From Vezdaea acicularis (Eukaryota): a stretch of 50,171 nt of DNA. Shown here in pieces: positions 7,913 through 45,295 of this stretch (positions are counted from its first letter, which is position 1; each line of letters starts with the position of its first letter). The notes beneath the pieces are model-generated. The model ran no database searches. It saw nothing but the letters and a program-made list of their open reading frames with translations, and was not told the origin of the DNA. The stretch lies in contig JAPEUI010000115.1 in the NCBI GenBank assembly GCA_026025075.1, forward strand, positions 1-50,171, in the 5' to 3' direction. The position numbers were made by a program, and so were the translations under genes.

Positions 7913-8376
7913 TTAGGCTTTCGACACAGAGTGTGGCTTCTGTGCGTCTCTTGTCTCCGTTCTGTCGTCATTTCCCTTCCTCTTCCAGCATTCCTTGAAA
8001 GCTTCCATCTGAGGCTGAATTAGCACGAACCGATTTTGTGGGGTTGCACATTAAGCGATGCCGCCGAATCATAGCGACGCTCACCTCTTTCTTGCACGCC
8101 CTCCAATCTTTCCTGTCATAGTAGCAGTCCGTCATTTTCGCGTTCTCGTCTTCATTCATGTGTCAATAGTGTCTCATCTGGGTGGCTTGTTCTTGTTCTG
8201 TCTTACCTGCGCATCCGGTGCTGAAAATTCTTTTGTCCCTAGCGGTTCCCGCGGTGTCAGTCAGTGTGACTTTTTTGCTTTTACGAGCAAAGAAAAACAT
8301 TTCAGTACCAGTCATCAGGTTGATCATCAACTTCGGGCAACTTTGCATCTTCCGCTTTTGAAAGTGATTGTCTCAT
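7913..8376 (-). CDS. COA4: Twin CX9C cytochrome c oxidase assembly factor; exons 8376-8309, 8238-8207, 8149-8085, 8008-7913 (start codon uncertain)
   Basis: Hand-spliced protein ..PDDWDKRIFSTGCADENAKMTDCYYDRKDWRACKKEMEAFKECWKRKGN.. has two CX9C motifs and matches the Coa4 pattern. Confidence 0.85.
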
Positions 8377-33472: not shown

Positions 33473-34456
33473 CTATTCATCCATCTCCCACTGCACCTCC
33501 AACTCCCTTCTCCCTCTAGCCCTCTCCCTCGCAGCAAACCACTTCTTCTCGAATCCATTTCCCCTGTCCACTCCATCCCACCTGTACCCAGGCCTGATTC
33601 CGTACCTATTCGGATCCCCTCCGGGCCCCGAGTAAAGTGGCTTCCCTGACACGCTCTTCCCAGCTTTCCTCTCCTTGATGAACCCGGCGGCCGGATCATC
33701 CCACCTCTGCTTCGCCTTCAACTCCCTATTCATCTCCTCATCGTCCCTTGTCCGTGCAAATGGCATCAGCTTGGCCTCCTTCAGCTCCTCCTTCCGGGCC
33801 TGCGCAGCCGCCAACTGTGCCGGAGCCTGCATGGCTTTCTCTTTCTCCCTCTTTGCCCTTTCTTCCGCTTCTGCCGCCGCCCTAGCCTCTGCCCTCTTCA
33901 TGGCAACATTTACAATCCGCCCAGATGCATCGCGGTAGATGGTCTCCTGCCCGCGCCCCTTCTGCGCCAGCGCGTCAGCTTCGAAGCGCCTCCGCTCCTC
34001 TTTTTGCCGTTTTGCCAACGCCGCTGTTACGGAGGCAGCAGACTGCAGCCCAGCGGCGGCGCCACTTTCCATCCGCGGTGTGTCGCCATTGTCGTCGACG
34101 AACGTCGCGTCGTCGTCTTCGGCTGCGCGTTGGGCGCTCTCGAGGCCCGCGGCGGCTATGATGGCATCGGCTTCTGCTTGCTCGGAGCTGGAGGGAGCGG
34201 CCGCGCCGACGGTCTTCCAGGCGTTTTTCTTGGAACGCCGGAACTCGGCGGAGCGGGAGCTGATGGTCAAGGGGCTGTCATTGTCGGCGTCTTCAGGGTT
34301 CCTGGAGCTGCTGTCCCAGCCAAGGGCGTCGTCGTCGGCGATGATGAGGCCGCTGCTGTCGCCGGTTGGGGTGGGGTGGGAACGCTTCTTCTTCTTCTTG
34401 GGAGGGGGGGCGTCGGCCGTGAGGTAGTTCTTGGCAAGGTATGCGGAGAGGGACAT
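33473..34456 (-). CDS. BUD13: RES complex splicing factor Bud13/Cwc26, intronless
   Basis: YLAKNYL, ETIYRDASGR, RWDDPA, NRYGIRPGYRWDGVDRGNGFE. Confidence 0.95.
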   Translation of the reverse strand: MSLSAYLAKNYLTADAPPPKKKKKRSHPTPTGDSSGLIIADDDALGWDSSSRNPEDADNDSPLTISSRSAEFRRSKKNAWKTVGAAAPSSSEQAEADAIIAAAGLESAQRAAEDDDATFVDDNGDTPRMESGAAAGLQSAASVTAALAKRQKEERRRFEADALAQKGRGQETIYRDASGRIVNVAMKRAEARAAAEAEERAKREKEKAMQAPAQLAAAQARKEELKEAKLMPFARTRDDEEMNRELKAKQRWDDPAAGFIKERKAGKSVSGKPLYSGPGGDPNRYGIRPGYRWDGVDRGNGFEKKWFAARERARGRRELEVQWEMDE

Positions 34457-35758
34457 TGTTGGGAGAGGAGATGAGTTGGATCAAGGTAGAGAAACGTGGA
34501 CCCTTGGATGGTTGGAAGGTGAAGTTTTGTTGCGGGTTTCATGTCACGTGTGGCGTACAATAGTTGTGCAGTTATCCAAGCTCTCATGACACGCATATCG
34601 GATGACAGCGCTGATTGGGCGCAACCCCGGCAGGGCGGTGCCTGCAAGCAGCTTCGCCCGCAGCCGAGGCGGTGATCTGCATTGAGCTTCAAGCAAGCTT
34701 CCCCCGAGCTGGTGCTGCCGTCATCTGCCTTTCCTGCCCTTTCCGCAAATGTCCGACGTTAGTAGACACTCGAGCACGCGCCTCTGACGAGGACTCTTAT
34801 CCCTCAGCAACGGCCTCGAGCACGTCTTGCACGGCGCAGAATTACGTCATCTACCCCCCGCGCTGCTCCCTCCTAACAGAGCGCGGGCGGCTAAAATGGG
34901 ACTCACCTCGTAAGCGCCACGCTGGGCCATGTGCCCGAGCTCGAGCTCCCCAAGCTATCGATCCTGTTATCACCCCAATCTCTCCAATCCGCCCTCTTAT
35001 CTCCACCACCGCCCTGCCCTCCGTTGTTCTCTCTTGGAACGAACCCCGCGCTGCATGCCGGGAAAACATGGGTTGTGTTGCGAGATAATGCCAGGCCCAG
35101 GCACGGTCAGTGACATAGGGCCTGCGACGTCTGACGCAGTAAATAAAGAAACATCATCCCCCCCCGTGTCTGCTTGACCTGCTGACTGCCGTGAACTGAA
35201 CCATAACACCACCACCGCTTGTGCACTGCCTTTGTTATCCGACTGACTTCAAGCACTTACCTCTGTTACTTCCTTGACGTGTGCTGTCTGTAACCCATCA
35301 CCAGTACAACGTTCCACCTGCACGCCTTCTGTTACGAGGCTTGCATTCACCTGTCTGACACAAGCCTCTCGTGCTTTGAGTCTGCTGTTGCGACATAGCC
35401 ACAGGTCCAACCAGCAAGAAACGCCCGACGAGAAGAGTTGTGCACTAACCAACCCTTTATTCACTCGATCCTTCCCAACGCCCTGCGGTGACTCAGCCTG
35501 GACTACCCGCGAACGTTCCTGGTACTTCCACCGCGCCCTCCGACTCGCGCCCGCCTCACGTCCTCACGGCGTGAATCCACTCGTCCTCTTCCTCTTAACC
35601 TCCAGACTACGCGTCTTCCCTCTCCTATTCTCATATTCAAGCAAATAATCTCTCCCTGTTCTCCCGCAAAGCTTGCTCCTAGCCTTCAAGCCAACCCAAG
35701 CAAACACCTCTCAAACCCCCACCAACCGCCTCACTACCCCACCAAACCCAGCCCGAAC

Positions 35759-36582
35759 ATGACATCTTCCCCGACCATCCTCTCAGTCTCCGATCTCCGC
35801 TCGCCATCCCGCGAGCACAAGCGGGCCAAAGACCATTCCGCCAAATGGGCTCTCGGCGAAGCCGAATACCCCGTCGGACGCCGTGGAGGACAGATGCATG
35901 AGAACCAGCACCGACCGGTGATTCCGCAGCGGAAGTGAGTAATCTCGCCTTTTGCCCCTGTTCGTGCCCTTGCCCTTGCCCTTAGCCCTCGCCCTAAGCA
36001 ATTCCCCCAGCGTCCCTTTGCCTACGACATATCCTGATTTGATACTGCTGTGTATGCTCTGTGTGCTGTGCACCTTGTTTGCGAGACTCATATGACAGAG
36101 GCTAATGGAGACGCTTTCACAGAGTTGCACGCGCAATCAAGCTCTCCGACCCAACCCACGCCCGCACCACGCACCGCACCTCCCGCTCCCGCCAACTCTC
36201 CATCTCCTCCGCGCTCGCCCTCCCTCTGTCCCCGCTCCCCTACTCACCCACCGCTCCATCAGGCACTACCATCCTCTCAACCACCTCCAATCAAACACCC
36301 ACCGCCCACTTCACCCATCACACTACACTCAATCAAGCACCCCTCCTAACCCCCGAAACGGAACAGGCCTACTCCTTCGATGCGTCCCTGACGCCACAAG
36401 CTCATGCTGAGAGCGTGCTCGGCCTGGCGGTCCAGCGCGCGGTGGAGAGGTATGAAGGCCGCGTGACCGAAAAGTTGGTCAGAGAGGAGTGGGAGGTTGT
36501 CAGGGAGCGAGAGGATGACTTGGGGAGTGTTTGTGGGAGCGCGGTGGGAAGGGGTGAGGACGAGGGGTTTGAGCTTTTGTGA
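35759..36582 (+). CDS. Uncharacterised 211-aa S/T/P-rich protein with a C-terminal helix and two AIM/LIR-like motifs; exons 35759-35934, 36123-36582
   Basis: ATG in AACATG context; GTGAGT donor, GCTAAT branch and CAG acceptor join in frame with no stops; C-terminus YSFD..VLGLAVQRAVERYEGRVTEKLVREEWEVV..EDEGFELL*. Confidence 0.75.
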
Positions 36583-38024
36583 AGACTGGTGGGAGACGCT
36601 GACGGCGAACGGAATGTCGGGTCTGGGGAGTCGGTCCGGTGTGTGGTTCCTACTTGGTGGATTGGTCCTGGGATGGGGTGGGGTCAGGTGCTAATGGGGT
36701 GAGGAGTGGGTGTTGTATACTTTCCATCCCAGCATGTAATATCGTGCAAACCCGGTTCCTTTGGCTAGGATACTGGGTCTGCATCCCCTTCCCTTCCTTT
36801 CCTTCCATCTCTTTTCATTCTCTCTTCATGACCGACCCAGTCGTTCTCTTTACCCTTCAACACCCCTTGTATTCCCCGGCATTCCCCCCTTCATGCAACG
36901 ATGATATCCTAGAACACGCTGTCTTTTTTCCCTCTTCGGCGGCCCCTTTTTGCTTCTCTTCCCTTTAGACAGCGGGCGGATGTGCGCTTTTAATCTCCCC
37001 TTGCCCTACTACATACCTTTCTTCTACACAACGGAGTTTAGGCTTGCGGCGGCTTGAGTAGGGGGTAGGCTTAGAGTTGGGCTCTAGGGAGGCAGCGAGG
37101 GGTTAGGTAGCTTTGCTAGCTTAGTGGGTATCTATACCATCCACATCCTCCCTGATGCCCTCTTGATGCGTAATGAATACGCCCCTTTTTTTGAAATTGT
37201 CACTCATACTCGGATGATTCGATCGGTACCACCTCCTTTCCCATTCCCTAACCAATCTATCGCCGCCGTCTCAGTACCGCAGAACCAACTCCCCTCCATC
37301 CCTAGGTATCCGAGCACTATCCCGCACCACCCCACCGCGGTGCGAGACCCGGTATTGTATCGCTATTCCTCGACAAGGCGGAGGGTGGGAGTAGGGGATG
37401 ATCCGCGGTTTAGCATATACTTGATTTACCACCCCCCTGAGATAAACCCTCTCTTCCTTCCCCCCATGTGTTCTAAGTGTGATGTTACTGACTAGCTAGA
37501 GAAGAAATCTAATTTAAACATCCACCAAGCCCAAAACACTGAATAGAACACGGTAAAGAACCGGGGACACAGCAAAAAGGGGTAAGAAGGAGTGTGCAGT
37601 CTACACGGAATAAACACACCCACAAAGCCTTTACTAGCCCGCCTCCTCCGTAACCATGAACCCAAGCAAAACCCGCGTTGGTCGATAGCTATGAAGCTCC
37701 ATCCATAGCTATCCTTCATCCTTCACATGAAAAAAAAATCGGCTGGATGATTCAAGAGGGGAGATGGATAGGATGGAGGATATATACCGTACAGTGCTTG
37801 ATCACCATAACCCCTCCCGGCCACTCAGTCTACTTCCCGCTGCCGCACCAGAGGCCTGGAGATGAAGTTTTTTTTGGAAGGGTGGAGCGTGATCGGGGAG
37901 AGAGCTGGGGTGGGCAAAGTCGGGCTGGGATAGGATAGGAAGGATAGGAATGATATGGAAGATATTCTTCGATGCAAGAAGCTAGAAGGAGAAGTGCGAG
38001 AAGAGGTGATACACAACAGAAGCA

Positions 38025-38090
38025 GCAGACGCAGACGCAGACGCAGACACAAACGCAGCCACAGACGCAGACGCATACGCAGATACAAAT
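38025..38090. repeat. Imperfect (CAGACG)n hexanucleotide microsatellite
   Basis: cagacgcagacgcagacgcagacacaaacgcagccacagacgcagacgcatacgcagatac. Confidence 0.85.
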
Positions 38091-41000
38091 GAAGATATAA
38101 AACACGAAAAAGAGCCTATGGCCGAACGCATAGATCTCACACTCTTCGAAACTCCGCGGTATGAGACTTACGTATTTCCCCAGACACGAGGATGATGAGA
38201 AACCGCATTATCCCACCTTACCCTCTCTCCCCGAACCACGGGGGGGGTGGGAGGGAGAGGACGAGGGATGAGATATATCCCCAAGGGGACTGAGCTTAGA
38301 GGCTGAATTTGGAGTGTGAGATAGGGGGCTGGAGAGCAATATGTATACAGTGGATGTGATAAGCGTTTAATCAGATGGAGAAAAAGAGGCTCTACGCCGC
38401 TCGCAGCTTGGGAGTAAGTAATTAGTCCTTCCCTTTCCAAGGGATAGCCGTGGGAAGGGGGGTGGGTGTTCTGTCAGTGAGCGGGGATCTCAAGATATCT
38501 GTATCTGTCTACGCGTAGGTATGTATGTGTATACATCTATACATACATCAACCACCCACTCACCCACCAAACCCCTTAACATCGCCAACGAAGCACCCTC
38601 TTGAATGCGTGCTTCTATCTAGTCAACGTCGCGCCGGCACCACCTCGGCGCTTTCCAAGACGCAGAAAAGAAAGAAAGAAAGAAAGAACCACGAAACGAA
38701 CTAAGGCCGGCGGGCGGGGAGGCCGCAAAGTCTTGATTTGATTACGCTTTTCATCATCAATCAGAGTTCGAACCAGATCGACCGACCGCGCCGGATACCC
38801 ACGTGGGCCCCCGAAACACGGGACGGGATGAGAAAGTGAAAAAGGGGGCGTTTGCGAGCCGTACGCGTTTTGGGGGCGGAACGCAAGCCAGTTATGCACG
38901 TTTGATGAGATATCTCCGGGACAGGGCCAACCGCCTCCATTAGGGGAGGAAGAGAGGAGATTGCTGGAGTGGTAGGAAGGGGACTCTAGATGAGGAAGAA
39001 AAAAAAAAAATCTTCGAATACACATGTCAGGCATCGCGATTTTCTTCTTCATGCGAGGATGGCTGTTTCGCGAGTGAGATCTGGGATGATGCTGGGAAAA
39101 AAAGAAGCGGAGGAGGAACGGGGGATGATCCCCGTTCGAAGAAGCGGGCTGGGTTCAGGGTGGGTTGCAGACCGCGTGGTCGACAGGGTTTCGTTAGGCC
39201 GCTTGCAACTTGCGTGACTAGCCTGTTTCAGCCGACCGAAATTTCTCCCGGCCAACGAAGAAACGGGATGGCGGCTTGAGAGAGGAGGTGTTCGTGAAGG
39301 AGAGAGAGTGGTTGCCGGGTGAGGGTGAGAGTGTGTGCCTTGTAGCAGGGCGTGTTGGTTTTTTGGGGTCTGGCTTTCTCTCTGCTCTGCTCTGCTCTTT
39401 AGGCGACGGTCTGGTGGGATGTGAGGAGTCGGCGTTCGGCTGAATGGGGGCAGAGCGTCCGGGCCTTGTTCAGATACTTTCCGGACACGAAGTCATCTCT
39501 TAGTTCGGCTGCAGAGTACGTGTGCGTGAACCGCTCGGCGATATGGAACCTCGACCGACCGCCGGGTCGAGTGGTCGGGAGTGTGAATCAGATCGTGGAT
39601 ATGCTGAGGGCGGCGGAGGTTGTTGATCACCGAAAGCTTCCGCTACGACGACCGAAGATTCTCTGTTTCTAGTGTTGGCTTAACTCGTCGTTCGACTAAA
39701 GATGTGGTGATGGCGCCGTAGCGACGATCTGGTCTTGCGATCTGGATTGCACGGGATCACCCTTGCTCGATGCCTGGTCGAGCATCCCTGCCGCCAACAA
39801 CGCTCGGTGGGGCAGCACCATCCCCCGGATGATTTCATTATCTGATCGTCCTGCTTCTTCGACCCTAGTGTCGTGGCCCCGACTCGAACTCCCCGCTTCT
39901 CTTCGCAATGGCCATAGCTGTGTCTCTGGTAGAAGGATCTCCTGGGTGCCCGGTGAGAGGGGCACCAAAGCAGCTCCCCCATGGGCGATGGCTGTATCCG
40001 CTCGGCAGCCACCTCCATCATGGCGGAATCGGTAGCGGACGAGCAGCTCGAAGGCGCTCGCTTCCTGCTCGCTCAGATAGCCCATTTGTCGTAGCTTCCT
40101 CACCCCCCCCCACTCCCCTTTCTATCCGCCCTTCCTGACTTCGCGACTCAGGCTACTCCGCATCTCTGGATTCTCCCGGAACGCGCCCGGATCCACCCAT
40201 TAGGCAGGTCGAGGATGCTGGAGAGTCACGCAAAGGCACGATGGTACCGACCCCGTCCGTCCAAGCGCCGCGATCTACATCTCGACACGCTCAAGCGATC
40301 GGCGCGCGGTGGTCGAAGCGATAGAACATACGTCCTCGGCATGACGTGACGTCTTGGCACGAGGGCCGGCGAACGTCCCTTCTGCTTCTGAAACGGCGTG
40401 GGTTCGAACGTAGCAGGAGCGACCACGTTGGGGAGAGGGGAGGGGGAGGGGTTCCTAGTTGCGATGGCTAGTTTCAGCTGCACGCAACGCTTATCGCGCC
40501 CACGTAGGATAAGGACCGGCCGGGCGAGCGAGGAGAGCAGCGATAGCGATTGGTGGTGGACGAATGCTCGCTTGGTGGCGGTCAGGCCCCTCTCCAGTCC
40601 CCGGGCGCGCCAAGAGGAGCCGACGACGCCGTCGCTCTTCCCTTCTGCGGCAGCTTCTAGAAAAATTCTGATCCCTGCGGCGTGTGCAGCGCGGCCAGCG
40701 TTAGCGCGGAGCCCCGGTGGTGTGCGGCGACGGAAGAGGCAAGGACGGGGGAGGAGGGAAAGGGTCTGACCAGCGCGCCGAAACGCCGGCCCCTCCGCTC
40801 CGCCAAATGACGCCTCCACCAATTTCCCACGTGGCCTCCTCCGTCCGCCGTCCGCCATCCACCGCCATCCCACCGCCCGCCCCTCCGCTCGTGTCCGCAT
40901 CCGTCTGGAAGCAGATCGTGGACAAGCGCCACGGCCGTCGTCCTGGCTCTCACGACGGCTTCTCCATGTCCATGCCCATGCGCGTGTCGCTTCAAGCTTC

Positions 41001-42780
41001 TGTTCTTGCTCTGCGACGGAGGAAAGGAATGATCCCTTCGGTTGATGCCCGCCAGCGCCAGGGAACGGCTTTTGAGACAGCTTGCCCCGAGCGCACGCAG
41101 GAGACCGAATCTGCGTCCAAGGCGCTCTAGCCGTCTCAGCCTCTCGTCCTTTTCCTGGAGAGGGACCGCGCGTGGGGTGCAGATGCCAGATGCTCGGTGT
41201 GAAAGTATTGTGTCCCCCCTCCGACGAAATTCGACGCAATCCCACGCTGCCATTGGTGGAGGATGGAAATGGCCGGCCGGTATACGAGCGTCGGCCGCGA
41301 CCCAGCTGCAGCCGAGATTGCACGTCGAGCCGACGCCTTCCAGTGCCAGCTCCCGCGCGCCCAATGGAGAGATTCGCTCATCTCTCTGGAAAAAGAACGG
41401 CGCTCGTGGATGGAGATTCGTGGTACGAGGAGGCCTAGTGCGCGTCAAAGTGCGGATGGACATGGCCCCCAATCGAGGCATGCGGTCCACCAGTCTCACG
41501 GCGTCTCTCGCAACGCCCGGCCGATGAAGACGTTCGTTCCATGCTCGTTCACTCTTATTCTGTGCAGCGGTCGGGGCCGGGGCTCGTCTCGTCGCGGCTG
41601 TCGTTTCGTCATGCTGGATGCAGCCACGAAGCGACGGCGACATCAACCGCGGGCAGCAGGGTGGGTCCGTCGCGCGTGGCAGCCTGGTCCAACGTGGAGT
41701 TCTTGCGCGAGGGAGGGCGGCCGGCCGAGCGAGCGAGCGAGCGGGTGCGGATGCGCACGCGCAGGCGCTCCCGTCAAAACCCTTTCCTGCCTTTTTCCAC
41801 CCTTTGCACGGCCATTTCCCCTTCTCGGACCCCCACACCCTTCGCTTTTCCCCCAATTCCTTGCAGAAACAAAGGGGGTGGTTCGTGAGCAGCGCGCGAG
41901 AGAGCCAGTCACGAGAATCAGCCGCGACCAGGCACCTGCAGATCCTCGAGGGGGCCTGCCGCGAGCACGCCGTGTGATTTGCCCTGCGACGATGCCTCGC
42001 GCATCCCAATATCGCCCAGAACATCGAATGACGAATGAGGACAGGAGCCCTCGTCTGGCGCACTGCCCGGTCTCCCACCCCCCTATCCCCTGCCCCTCCC
42101 TCCCGCCAATCACGCCCCCGGTCCCGCAGCGCCGGCCGTCCCTCGTGGCCGGCCAGGAACCCCCATCGGAGGCTGACACACGCCATCCGTCGCCGACGCT
42201 TTCCCTTCTTCTGCGACGGGGGCCGGACGAGGGTGGAGAGTGAGAGTGAGTGCTCAGCCCTTAGTCACCGACCGCTGCGTGCGCGCCCGCCCTCGCTCGC
42301 TCGCTCGCTCGCTGCCGTCTCCTTCACCTCTCCCCAAACATCACCACCCCCCTCTCCCCCCCCTCCCTCCCTCCCTCTCTCTCTCACACTCTCACGAGAA
42401 AACGCCGTCGGACGAGAAACTAACAGCCGCCCGCCCACGCCGCCACGGGACACGACTCACGAAGGAACGCGACCAGCCCGTCGCCCTCGCCCTGGCTCCC
42501 GTCCGTTTTTCCTCGTGGTGGATCCGGCTACTGCAACGACGGATCGACACCGCCGGGCCCTGCACGCATCAGCGCCTTGCATCCGCCCCCCCCTCGGCCA
42601 ACCACCGTCATCTTCCATCTTAGCCGGTCGAAGTCGCCGCCGCGAAGGGACAACGCTCCCTTCAAGGCAAAATCTGCATGGTGTGACGCCGCCTATCGTC
42701 CACTGAAGCTATTCCCTTGCCCTGATCCTATCCGGACCGTCATATCCTGCGCCTTCCACCGTCCGACCCTTCACGCGTTC

Positions 42781-45295
42781 ATGCTCGAAACGGCATACAT
42801 GACGGATCCATCCGCCGCCCGCCCCGTCCCTCCGACGACTCCCTCCTCTCATCATCCCTCTCATGCCCCTCCCATCGCGCCCTTCTCACCCTCAACCAAT
42901 TCACCTCCCTCGCAAGCGCCATCTCTCGCCTTTGCACTGTCCGACGAACAGCTCTTGACCGACAGACCCTCGCTCGAGACAAAGAGCGTGAGATCGGCTA
43001 CCCATCTCCGTCCGACCTTGTTCTATTCACTCTCTGCAGAGTCCCGCACCTCAGCTGAAATCTTTCCCGCCCCAGCCAGTTCAGCGTCCCGCGAGGCCAG
43101 CCCTACCAGCAGATCGTCCCGGAGTACTTCAAGAACGCGCAGTGGCTTCCTCTCCTTCGCCGCGCTCGCTCGTGAGAAGACTTCTAGCGCCTTTTCCGGC
43201 TTCTCCTCTCGGCAGCATCCCACCTCGGCATCGTCAGTCCGCTCGGCGTCGTCCGCAAACAACCTCACCTCACTCAGTTCGACCTCGAGCATCCTGAGCA
43301 ACGAACCGCCGCTGCCTCCGCTGCCTCCACGGGAGCCGAACACGACGATCGACGTGCCCGCCTCTCAGCTGCCCGAAGAACAACGGCCACGCCTGTCCAA
43401 GGAAGAATCGGTCGAGAAGCCCTCGCGCTCGATATCAGCCGTTTCCAAGCCCGCCGTGGGTATCAGCAGCCGGCGTCGCTCAAACGAGGACGACCCCGCC
43501 ACGCCCTTTGAGTTACAAGTAGACCCAAAACTCAAGTCCGTAGCTTACGGCAACGTCAACAAGATGCATCAAACATCGTCGAGGTTATTGCGGATGACGG
43601 ATGAGGAACGGCCGTTCACAAGGGTGAGTTTTGATTCATATACTCGTCAATATCCTGTCAACTAATACATGATCTTGACACAGGACTTTAAGGATCTGTT
43701 CTCGACTCTGATGGTCAGCCTCCCACTGACGTCGCACCGAATACGGCTGCAGAAAGTGTCCCATACCTTTACTTCGGAAGAAGCAATCAACAATCTAGGC
43801 TCGCTCAAATTTTCCCAGTCGAATCGGATGCCAGACCCTAAGGACTCATCTCGTATTGTGACAACCACGACCACCACCACTTTCTCTATGGCCCGTGAGA
43901 TGGCTCGCTCGGTTTGCCAACGGTTCTTGGACGCAAGGTTTATTGAAGCAGCAGATGGCAAATTGATTTACAATTTCCCTCTGAAAGGAAGCATCTGGCA
44001 ACTCACTCCCAAAGGCATGCACATATTACAACGATTCTGTCAGCGCAATGGCATCAATCAGAAGCATATCGTGGACGTCCTTGAGTCGCCTCGAAATTCC
44101 ATGCAACTAGTCATATTAGAACGTGATGCACAGACCGACAAGCTTTCACATGACCGGGCTACGATCGAGGTCATCTTCCGAAGATTTGTCGGACAGGATG
44201 GACCGAATCTCAAGCTGAATACGTCAAGTTCCGACTCGGATTCGTTGAGTGATTATGCAAATGGCCTAGTGGGTGTGAAGATGGCCAAGGAGCGGAAGAT
44301 CGCGGACAAAGTGGTGCCGAATACGTTCACTGGCAAAGCGACCGTCGACTGGCTGATGGACTGCTGTGATACGATCGACCGAGGAGAAACGTGTGAGGTT
44401 GCAAAGACATTCCTCACGCAAGGGCTGGTTGCGTCAATCGCGGAGGACAAACTCTATATCCAGCACAACCCGGACAAGCGGATCTTCCAACCGACGAAGG
44501 CGGCAATCTATTCTCTCACCGAAAAGGGCCAGAGAGTGGCTGGGTGGCTGCGAAGGTCGGGAAGCGAGGAGCGTGATACCGAATTGAATGGCGTGAAGGA
44601 CCTGCGGATAACACCACGAGACTCAAATACGAACCGTCTGACGGTCATCCTGAGCGATCCTGCACTTCGATTGCTCTTCAGAGAGTTCTTGCGGGATACG
44701 CACTGCGAGGAGAACATGGCGTTCTATCTGGACGTCGTGGAGTTCACAACGGCGTACAAGACGATCACTCGGAAGGGCATGACGCCGAAGATTGACACGA
44801 TCCGAGAGTCACTCGCCGCAGCATACGGTAGGCGTGCTTTTTGAAAGATCTCGCAAAGCGATCGCTAACATCCCATAGGTCTATACAACGCATTCCTTGC
44901 CCCCGGCTCACCATGCGAGCTGAACATAGACCACAATCTGAGAAACAATCTAGCTGGCCGAATGACAAGGGCCGTCGGTGACGATGAAGCAATGATCAAC
45001 AGCCTGAAAGACGTAGCGAAGCTTTTCGACGAGGCTCAAAATTCCGTCTTCAAGCTCATGTCAAGCGTAGGTGGTTTGGTTCGATGGAGCAAGTTCGAAA
45101 GGCTGACATCCACGATAGGACTCTGTTCCCAAATTCCTCAAAGACCCAAAGTACGCCCCGATCCTCAAGGAACACGACTACGAGGCGACTCTCAATGGAC
45201 AACAGCCCGCTAGCTCCGGAACGAGTTCTGGTTCGCACACAAAGGAATGGTCACCCTTGCCGCCGCAACCAGCTGTAACGAAGCCCGAAACGTGA
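42781..45295 (+). CDS. flbA: Regulator of G-protein signalling FlbA (DEP-DEP-RGS, Sst2 family); exons 42781-43623, 43684-44827, 44879-45066, 45119-45295
   Basis: MHQTSSRLLRMT.EERPFTR|DFKDLFSTL, KFSQSNRMPDPKD..IVTTTTTTTFSM, RGS box DPALRLLFREFLRDTHCEEN..APGSPCELNIDH..DSVPKF; start ATG inferred. Confidence 0.95.

What the first reader, a model, noticed from the sequence alone, without database searches (positions are those of the whole stretch)
35759..36582. Unannotated 211-aa protein with two acidic Atg8-interacting motifs: candidate selective-autophagy receptor
Seen: a two-exon gene missing from the ORF track. It encodes a disordered S/T/P-rich body, an amphipathic helix (ESVLGLAVQRAVERYEGRVTEKLVREE), then EE-WEVV and a terminal EDEG-FELL*. 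Known: the AIM/LIR consensus is acidic-[W/F/Y]xx[L/I/V], the FAM134B LIR is DDFELL, and yeast Atg19 ends in WEEL. No TM segment is visible. Inference: a soluble Atg8 adaptor of filamentous fungi with unknown cargo. The first WEVV motif may simply be part of the helix.
Basis: partly seen in the sequence, partly recalled or inferred. Interest (0 to 1): 0.7.

Follow-up and report, generated by a model that had tools for sequence, protein, structure and literature searches.

The report
Unnamed fungal twin-AIM protein family
A small, mostly disordered protein found across several classes of filamentous ascomycetes keeps two Atg8-type docking motifs and a starvation-response DNA site, making it a good but untested candidate autophagy cargo receptor.

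Summary
The two-exon gene is real. The model gives 211 aa, identical to an NCBI 'hypothetical protein', so it is uncharacterised, not unannotated. It belongs to an unnamed family (105 homologues by phmmer; 254 by profile) with no Pfam or PDB match. Orthology is backed by a shared phase-2 intron (47 of 50 intron models), intronless relatives that read across it, and Bud13 head-to-head (22 of 30 loci). Both motifs are conserved: E-[YW]-x-x-[VLI] in 105 of 106 rows and acidic-[FYW]-x-x-[VIL] in 105 of 105 rows that reach it, across a 14-58-residue variable linker. The first motif follows the helix end in a second model. New: a CpcA/Gcn4-type site TGASTCA about 270 nt upstream recurs in 20 of 22 upstream regions (shuffles 1.6; control windows 6%). 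Best reading: a starvation-induced, soluble, bivalent Atg8 adaptor (0.6). Rival binders of acidic-aromatic motifs (Tfb1 PH, mu-adaptin, Atg11) remain open.

The parts
35759..35934 (+). Exon 1 (codons 1-58 and 2 nt of codon 59): basic N-terminal part
   Evidence: matches P0003
35792..35857 (+). Conserved N-terminal block DLR-x7-R-x6-KWxxG (residues 12-33), predicted helix 15-30; candidate cargo-binding site (inferred)
   Evidence: A1 columns: R22 71/74, K29 69/72, W30 64/73, G33 71/78; helix pLDDT 85-93
35912..35917 (+). Conserved RP dipeptide (residues 52-53) just ahead of the intron
   Evidence: P53 84/84 rows with a residue
35935..36122 (+). Phase-2 intron, 188 nt, GTGAGT ... GCTAAT (36101) ... 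CAG
   Evidence: same phase in 47 of 50 intron models of relatives, mostly 7-9 codons after the RP motif; removed exactly in intronless L044 against L047
36123..36582 (+). Exon 2: disordered middle, conserved core, two AIM-like motifs, TGA stop
36370..36489 (+). Conserved core YS[FY]DA-x-x-GP-x-x-GS-x-IL-x-x-AL-x-KAVERFE-x-x-x-TEKLV-x-x-E (residues 142-181), predicted helix 150-181/182
   Evidence: A165 and E181 invariant, Y142 D145 P150 G154 L158 A161 E170 T174 L177 at 90% or more
36490..36501 (+). Internal AIM-like core WEVV (182-185); family E-[YW]-[ED]-[VILF]-[VLI]
   Evidence: aromatic 106/106, last position L/I/V 105/106
36568..36579 (+). Terminal AIM-like core FELL (208-211); family [DE][DE][DEG]-[FYW]-E-[LFIM]-[VIL]
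   Evidence: aromatic 105/105, E 102/105, V/I/L 105/105
35489..35495 (.). TGACTCA, CpcA/Gcn4-type response element (CPRE), 270 nt upstream of the ATG
   Evidence: the only one of 3 sites in the window that lies outside a long ORF; in 20 of 22 upstream regions; consensus per PMC3199737
34996..35001 (.). CTTATC (GATAAG), GATA-factor-type site; a second at 34796
   Evidence: GATAAG in 20 of 22 upstream regions against 27% of control windows
35230..35236 (.). CTTTGTT (AACAAAG), HMG-box-type site (label recalled)
   Evidence: in 18 of 22 upstream regions against 12% of control windows
33473..34456 (-). Bud13/Cwc26 gene, divergent neighbour; synteny marker only
   Evidence: Pfam Bud13 E 5.5e-47; upstream and opposite in 22 of 30 related loci with 3 kb or more upstream

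Best explanation
A soluble, largely disordered adaptor of filamentous ascomycetes that is switched on by amino-acid/nitrogen starvation (cross-pathway bZIP site, GATA sites) and binds Atg8 through two acidic AIMs, one straight after a conserved helix and one at the C-terminus on a flexible tether, so that it can grip two Atg8 molecules on a growing phagophore. Its other conserved blocks (basic N-terminal helix with KWxxG; YSFDA-GP-helix core) bind cargo or a scaffold, making it a selective-autophagy receptor or receptor-like adaptor. Shown: gene, family, motif conservation, disorder, upstream sites. Inferred: induction, Atg8 binding, avidity, cargo.
For: Both cores fit W/F/Y-x-x-L/V/I with acidic flanks (consensus as in PMC8666691) in 105 of 106 and 105 of 105 rows. 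The terminal motif did not drive the search: 90 of 105 phmmer hits have a best stretch ending before residue 208, and 89 of those 90 carry it (the exception, P0047, is truncated). The linker varies from 14 to 58 residues. Aromatic swaps Y/W/F occur at both sites, as an AIM allows. Terminal motif lies in a low-confidence, unstructured tail; internal core begins after helix 125-152 in the P0112 model. No TM: 1 of 106 members exceeds KD19 1.6, an over-long model. TGASTCA in 20 of 22 dereplicated upstream regions, the top de novo 7-mer, staying 230-370 nt from this ATG in 11 of 12 loci checked while Bud13 lies 1.6-4.7 kb away. Cpc1 binds ATG5/7/8/9 promoters in Cochliobolus (PMC12345223 passages). 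The genome's own Atg8 is intact and identical to P0286 over residues 1-116.
Against: No binding, localisation or knockout data. AIM consensus matches give false positives (PMC8666691). Acidic-aromatic-x-x-aliphatic strings also bind other domains (Tfb1/p62 PH, PMC10345426). In the model of this protein itself the helix runs to W182. A CpcA site marks any amino-acid-starvation gene, not only autophagy genes; this genome's ATG8 locus L002 has no TGASTCA; 2 of 22 regions lack it; the loci are related, so counts are not independent; and the site lies inside 9 of 15 intronless contigs, so it may sit in the transcribed leader. No cargo-binding domain is recognisable.
Confidence: 0.6

Rival explanations
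1. It binds Atg8 (or the Atg11 claw, which takes similar acidic-aromatic motifs; recalled) but is no cargo receptor: a regulator or scaffold of phagophore growth, or a short-lived protein whose motifs act as its own autophagic degron.
For: Same motif and promoter evidence; no recognisable cargo domain. Atg8-AIM contacts with core machinery exist (PMC7595586, search listing and abstract start).
Against: Two further conserved blocks, one basic (N-terminal 80 residues average +7 net charge, rest -14), suggest a second, non-Atg8 partner.
Confidence: 0.15
2. A nuclear protein whose acidic-aromatic strings bind the Tfb1/p62 PH domain of TFIIH or act as an acidic activation domain; the basic N-terminus and basic linker would serve nuclear import or nucleic-acid binding.
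For: S. pombe Tfa1 has two acidic strings ending F-x-D-V, one C-terminal (PMC10345426 passages). 33 of the 105 linkers hold 4 or more K/R in 8 residues.
Against: PH-binding strings have an acidic residue two places after the aromatic; here that place is D/E in 0 of 106 (internal) and 0 of 105 (terminal) rows and hydrophobic in 106 and 104. No DNA-binding domain. This member lacks the basic linker.
Confidence: 0.12
3. The motifs are tyrosine-type sorting signals (Y-x-x-hydrophobic, mu-adaptin) or SUMO-interacting motifs, and the protein is a trafficking or SUMO-pathway accessory (both consensus definitions recalled).
For: Internal motif has Y in 98 of 106 rows; both cores are acid-flanked hydrophobic strings.
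Against: W replaces Y in 8 of 106 internal motifs, and F or W stands in 63 of 105 terminal ones; position 0 is never aliphatic; no TM segment to sort.
Confidence: 0.1
4. Gene-prediction artefact or chance motifs.
For: No RNA evidence for this genome itself; exon 1 read through ends at a stop in the intron after 59 codons.
Against: Family of over 100 clusters at under 50% identity, conserved intron and spliced relatives, synteny, shuffle control.
Confidence: 0.02

Closest known systems
Hab1 (S. cerevisiae cargo-hitchhiking receptor; PMC11294605, passages and one section read)
   Same: Small soluble protein; a helix followed by an AIM; a separate conserved segment left for cargo (ribosomes in Hab1).
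   Different: Hab1's helix binds membrane and is N-terminal, with one AIM, and its orthologues were found in Saccharomycetaceae. Here helix and two AIMs are C-terminal, and the helix has near-zero charge, modest moment and invariant small residues. No sequence comparison with Hab1 was run.
AeiA (A. oryzae pexophagy factor; PMC12005406, whole text read)
   Same: Filamentous-fungal, soluble, several AIMs, no yeast or mammalian homologue.
   Different: AeiA ends in the peroxisomal signal ARL; this family ends in or just after the AIM, and 1 of 106 ends is PTS1-like.
MoAti1 (M. oryzae mitophagy; PMC10938464, passages and Table S1 read)
   Same: Atg8 partner without TM segment.
   Different: 416-aa SUN-domain protein; no SUN match here.
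Atg19/Atg34, FAM134B/RETREG1, p62/NBR1 (recalled)
   Same: Acidic AIM/LIR near or at the C-terminus in disordered sequence; multi-AIM avidity in Atg19.
   Different: No coiled-coil/ABD, reticulon, PB1, ZZ, FW or UBA domain detected.
Tfb1/p62-PH acidic strings (Tfa1, Rad4, XPC; PMC10345426 passages)
   Same: Acid run, aromatic, two residues, valine; two copies in S. pombe Tfa1.
   Different: Second position after the aromatic is acidic there and always hydrophobic here.

Membership tests
AIM/LIR-bearing selective-autophagy receptor | [W/F/Y]-x-x-[L/I/V] core with acidic flank, conserved | tested here: met
   105/106 internal, 105/105 terminal; shuffles 2.9 of 106
AIM/LIR-bearing selective-autophagy receptor | Motif exposed in disordered or extended sequence | tested here: inconclusive
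   Terminal motif unstructured in both models; internal core outside the helix in the P0112 model but its first residue ends the helix in the model of this protein
AIM/LIR-bearing selective-autophagy receptor | AIM-dependent physical binding to Atg8 | not tested
AIM/LIR-bearing selective-autophagy receptor | Binds a defined cargo and is degraded with it in the vacuole | not testable with these tools
   Needs cell biology
Hab1-type hitchhiking receptor | Membrane-binding amphipathic helix next to the AIM | tested here: not met
   18-residue windows 155-182: mean moment 0.20-0.35, net charge 0 to -1.4; lipid-binding discriminant above 0.68 in 0-12 of 95-106 rows per window (scale and threshold recalled)
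Hab1-type hitchhiking receptor | Ribosome-binding segment | not testable with these tools
   Only a basic conserved N-terminus is seen
AeiA | C-terminal peroxisomal signal (ARL) | tested here: not met
   Ends in FELL; PTS1-like end in 1 of 106
SUN family (MoAti1) | SUN domain, about 416 aa | tested here: not met
   No such Pfam match in 106 members
Membrane ER-phagy/mitophagy receptors (FAM134B, Atg39/40, Atg32/43) | Transmembrane or reticulon segment | tested here: not met
   Max KD19 0.77; 1 of 106 above 1.6
Tfb1/p62-PH acidic string | Acidic residue at the second place after the aromatic | tested here: not met
   0/106 and 0/105; feature from PMC10345426
Ubiquitin-interacting motif (UIM) | hydrophobic-x-x-A-hydrophobic-x-x-S helix (PMC8666691) | tested here: not met
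   Spacing L158-x-x-A161-V162-x-x-A165 fits, but the Ser place is Ala in 106/106 and the flank is not acidic; no UIM Pfam hit
CpcA/Cpc1/Gcn4 regulon | TGA(C/G)TCA upstream of the gene | tested here: met
   35489-35495; 20 of 22 regions
CpcA/Cpc1/Gcn4 regulon | CpcA-dependent induction on amino-acid starvation | not testable with these tools
   No RNA data listed

The most novel reading that the evidence does not exclude
A starvation-induced, bivalent Atg8 receptor shared by several classes of filamentous ascomycetes that loads a major cytosolic or nuclear assembly (ribosomes or other ribonucleoprotein, through its basic KWxxG helix) onto phagophores: a lineage-specific counterpart of yeast Hab1 wired into cross-pathway control, filling a known gap in fungal selective autophagy.
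Probability: 0.2. Interest if true: 0.8.

Novelty: new member of a known kind. Interest (0 to 1): 0.58.

Why it matters
Selective-autophagy receptors of filamentous fungi are largely unknown because they do not resemble the yeast ones (stated in PMC12005406). This family gives a small, apparently single-copy, easily located candidate (next to Bud13/Cwc26) with two point-mutable motifs and a point-mutable upstream site, so one round of pull-down, GFP-release and knockout proteomics could name a new receptor and its cargo in moulds, lichen fungi and plant-associated fungi.

Tried and rejected
Word-index search with the C-terminal 78 aa found only the protein itself; metagenome scan with that stretch found nothing; both are sensitivity limits, overturned. 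No RNA holder listed: no evidence either way; read laying not used. Complex prediction of Atg8 with residues 136-211 was not available: no verdict. Pfam: nothing above cut-off; DUF7437 (17 of 106 members, best E 0.0011) and DUF7542 are sub-threshold and were not accepted. PDB by sequence: none for A1; for the exon-1 profile only designed repeat proteins. Foldseek none at E 0.001; VIA-align best Z 3.7, generic long helices. ESM Atlas: only unnamed, mostly ascomycete clusters. P0046 (tandem-repeat protein) was dropped from the 107 phmmer rows before all counts. A proline-rich alternative frame in exon 2 was considered and rejected by codon score and stop. L074-L076 seemed to stop before the motifs; L074 and L075 have a second intron and keep both (L076 not re-read); L072 ends at the contig edge. 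Aspergillus gene numbers recalled for cwc26 neighbours led nowhere and are unverified. The A. oryzae septal-pore localisation screen could not be mapped to this gene (part 1 of 12 of one supplement read). The MoAtg8 two-hybrid list has 14 hypothetical proteins that could not be mapped to sequence. The scan's earlier findings held nothing. Upstream STRE, CRE, E-box, CreA and PacC patterns did not exceed shuffles.

Full report
Observation. Exon 1 (35759-35934) and exon 2 (36123-36582) give 636 nt, 211 residues and a TGA; the intron has GTGAGT, a GCTAAT branch-like site at 36101 and a CAG acceptor. WEVV (182-185) and FELL (208-211) are the only [WFY]xx[LIV] cores, and there is no TM segment. A codon score trained on 15 long ORFs of the window favours the model frame in both exons. 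The product is identical to P0003, which the tool lists as 'hypothetical protein M1824_000602 [Vezdaea acicularis]', so it is uncharacterised rather than unannotated. One copy was found in the genome. No RNA run was listed.

Family. phmmer over 1.84 billion representatives gave 107 rows at E 0.001: the query, 105 homologues and one tandem-repeat protein (P0046) that I dropped. A profile of the 106 gave 254 proteins among 8000 scored candidates, 120 listed. All names are 'hypothetical' or 'uncharacterized'. Names were looked up for 30 of the 105 phmmer hits and shown for part of the 120; by my own placing of the genera they span Dothideomycetes, Eurotiomycetes (Onygenales, Eurotiales, Chaetothyriales), Lecanoromycetes, Lichinomycetes in the wide sense and Leotiomycetes. 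No named hit is a yeast, basidiomycete or Sordariomycete, but most hits were not named, so the range is open. There is no Pfam family above cut-off, no PDB sequence match and no fold match.

Orthology and expression in relatives. A metagenome scan returned 79 loci. Of 70 gene models, 50 had an intron, 47 of them in phase 2 like the window's, mostly 7-9 codons after the RP motif (query 7). Intronless contigs read straight across it: L044 matches L047 up to base 8164 and resumes at 8246, the exact ends of the modelled intron; L030 and L054 behave alike. I take these as transcript assemblies (inference). Bud13 lies upstream on the other strand in 22 of 30 loci with 3 kb or more upstream, not dereplicated, as in the window.

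Anatomy. Four conserved elements stand in otherwise variable sequence: a basic N-terminal helix DLR-x7-R-x6-KWxxG followed by RP; a core YS[FY]DA-x-x-GP-x-x-GS-x-IL-x-x-AL-x-KAVERFE-x-x-x-TEKLV-x-x-E; the internal motif; and the terminal motif. AlphaFold gives helices 15-30 and 150-182 and no compact fold (pTM 0.29); a second model on P0112 ends the helix at the invariant Glu, directly before Y-E-V-L. The internal motif is E-[Y98/W8]-[E72/D26]-[V/I/L/F]-[V53/L37/I15] of 106; the terminal one is [DE][DE][DEG]-[F61/Y42/W2]-E102-[L/F/I/M]-[V67/I24/L14] of 105. Between them the linker is 14-58 residues and unconserved. Ascertainment is not the cause: 89 of the 90 hits whose best stretch ends before residue 208 carry the terminal motif, the exception being truncated, and shuffling the last 60 residues yields 2.9 of 106 against 103 observed. 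In the phmmer set a simple end-window scan places the core at the very end in 79 of 106 and 1-6 residues before the end in the rest (one of these, P0047, is truncated and scored on its internal motif); in the second set 78 of 118 have two more residues, so a free C-terminus is not needed. Eleven members delete one residue just before the internal motif, which argues that it is not locked in helical register. The helix is only moderately amphipathic and uncharged, and has invariant Ala, Glu and Thr, which suits a protein partner more than lipid. It has UIM-like spacing but Ala at the Ser place in 106 of 106.

Upstream DNA. Having seen TGACTCA at 35489, I tested it in relatives. Among 22 upstream regions of 800 nt (21 loci with an intron model, dereplicated by protein, plus the window), 20 carry TGASTCA; base shuffles give 1.6 (max 7), 227 control windows from the same loci and the window 6%, and it is the top de novo 7-mer. 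It stays near this ATG and not near Bud13. GATAAG (20 of 22; controls 27%) and AACAAAG (18 of 22; controls 12%) are also enriched. TGA(C/G)TCA is the cross-pathway element of CpcA (PMC3199737 passages), and Cpc1 binds the promoters of four ATG genes in Cochliobolus (PMC12345223 passages). Another bZIP, IDI-4, induces idi genes, a set that includes ATG8, in Podospora (PMC3689799 passages); that its site is similar is recalled. Against over-reading: the loci are kin; two lack the site; the genome's own ATG8 locus has none; and the site lies inside 9 of 15 intronless contigs, so it may be in the transcribed leader or mark an inner start site.

Mechanism. Most likely (0.6) the protein is made on amino-acid or nitrogen starvation, docks on Atg8-rich membrane with two AIMs on a flexible tether, and holds a cargo or scaffold through its N-terminal helix and helical core. 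Gene, family, motifs, disorder and upstream sites are shown; induction, binding and cargo are inferred. The complex predictor was not available, so there is not even modelled binding. Rivals: an Atg8- or Atg11-binding regulator without cargo (0.15); a nuclear acidic-string protein for Tfb1-PH or Mediator (0.12), which fails on the second position, acidic in known strings (PMC10345426 passages) and acidic in none here; tyrosine sorting signals or SIMs (0.10), which sit badly with W/F/Y exchange; artefact (0.02).

Comparison. It works most like Hab1 (helix plus AIM, separate cargo segment; PMC11294605 passages and section 12) but fails Hab1's lipid-helix feature; it is not AeiA (no terminal ARL; PMC12005406 whole text) nor MoAti1 (SUN domain; PMC10938464 passages and Table S1). 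I found no description of the family in searches; the library lacks most subscription journals, bioRxiv supplements were closed, and Atg8 interaction lists with unmapped hypothetical proteins (14) may already contain a member. Other papers opened only as passages: PMC13208281, PMC13696596, PMC10241597 (not relevant), PMC8666691; PMC10023807 as supplement list and one part of one file.

Verdict. A real gene of an undescribed ascomycete family, with two strictly kept AIM-like motifs and a kept starvation element: a strong candidate, not a demonstrated receptor. New member of a known kind; interest 0.58.

Noticed in passing
L074:8186-8235, L075: One lineage of the family has a second intron exactly between the invariant Glu and the aromatic of the internal motif, so naive translation seems to stop before both motifs.
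   Followed up: yes
family linker between the two motifs (window 36502-36567): 33 of 105 members carry a K/R cluster (such as KKGKGK) in the linker, others none; it could be a nuclear signal or an acidic-lipid contact. This member lacks it.
   Followed up: partly
family middle region (window about 36280-36340): An acidic serine patch (SDSSADE-like, CK2-type by recall) is common in relatives (26 of 106 by a strict pattern) and absent in this member; it recalls phospho-switches of yeast receptors.
   Followed up: partly
window 35230-35236 and upstream of related loci: AACAAAG, an HMG-box-type site by recall, is enriched upstream (18 of 22 against 12% of controls); possible developmental control.
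   Followed up: partly
P0355 (Zymoseptoria tritici IPO323 model, 401 aa): Reference gene model runs on past the terminal motif into unrelated sequence while other isolates have 207 aa: probably a mis-annotation.
   Followed up: partly
P0133: A family member labelled Quercus suber; probably fungal sequence in a plant assembly (inference).
   Followed up: no
window 36600-42400: About 5.8 kb without an obvious gene, with simple repeats (GACGCA run near 38020) and a GC-rich stretch at 40-42.4 kb, upstream of an RGS/FlbA-like gene (42424-44844; label from reading the ORF, not scanned).
   Followed up: no
L077-L079: Divergent members without Bud13 nearby, with an 8-residue linker between the motifs and a differently placed first intron; lineage unknown.
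   Followed up: partly
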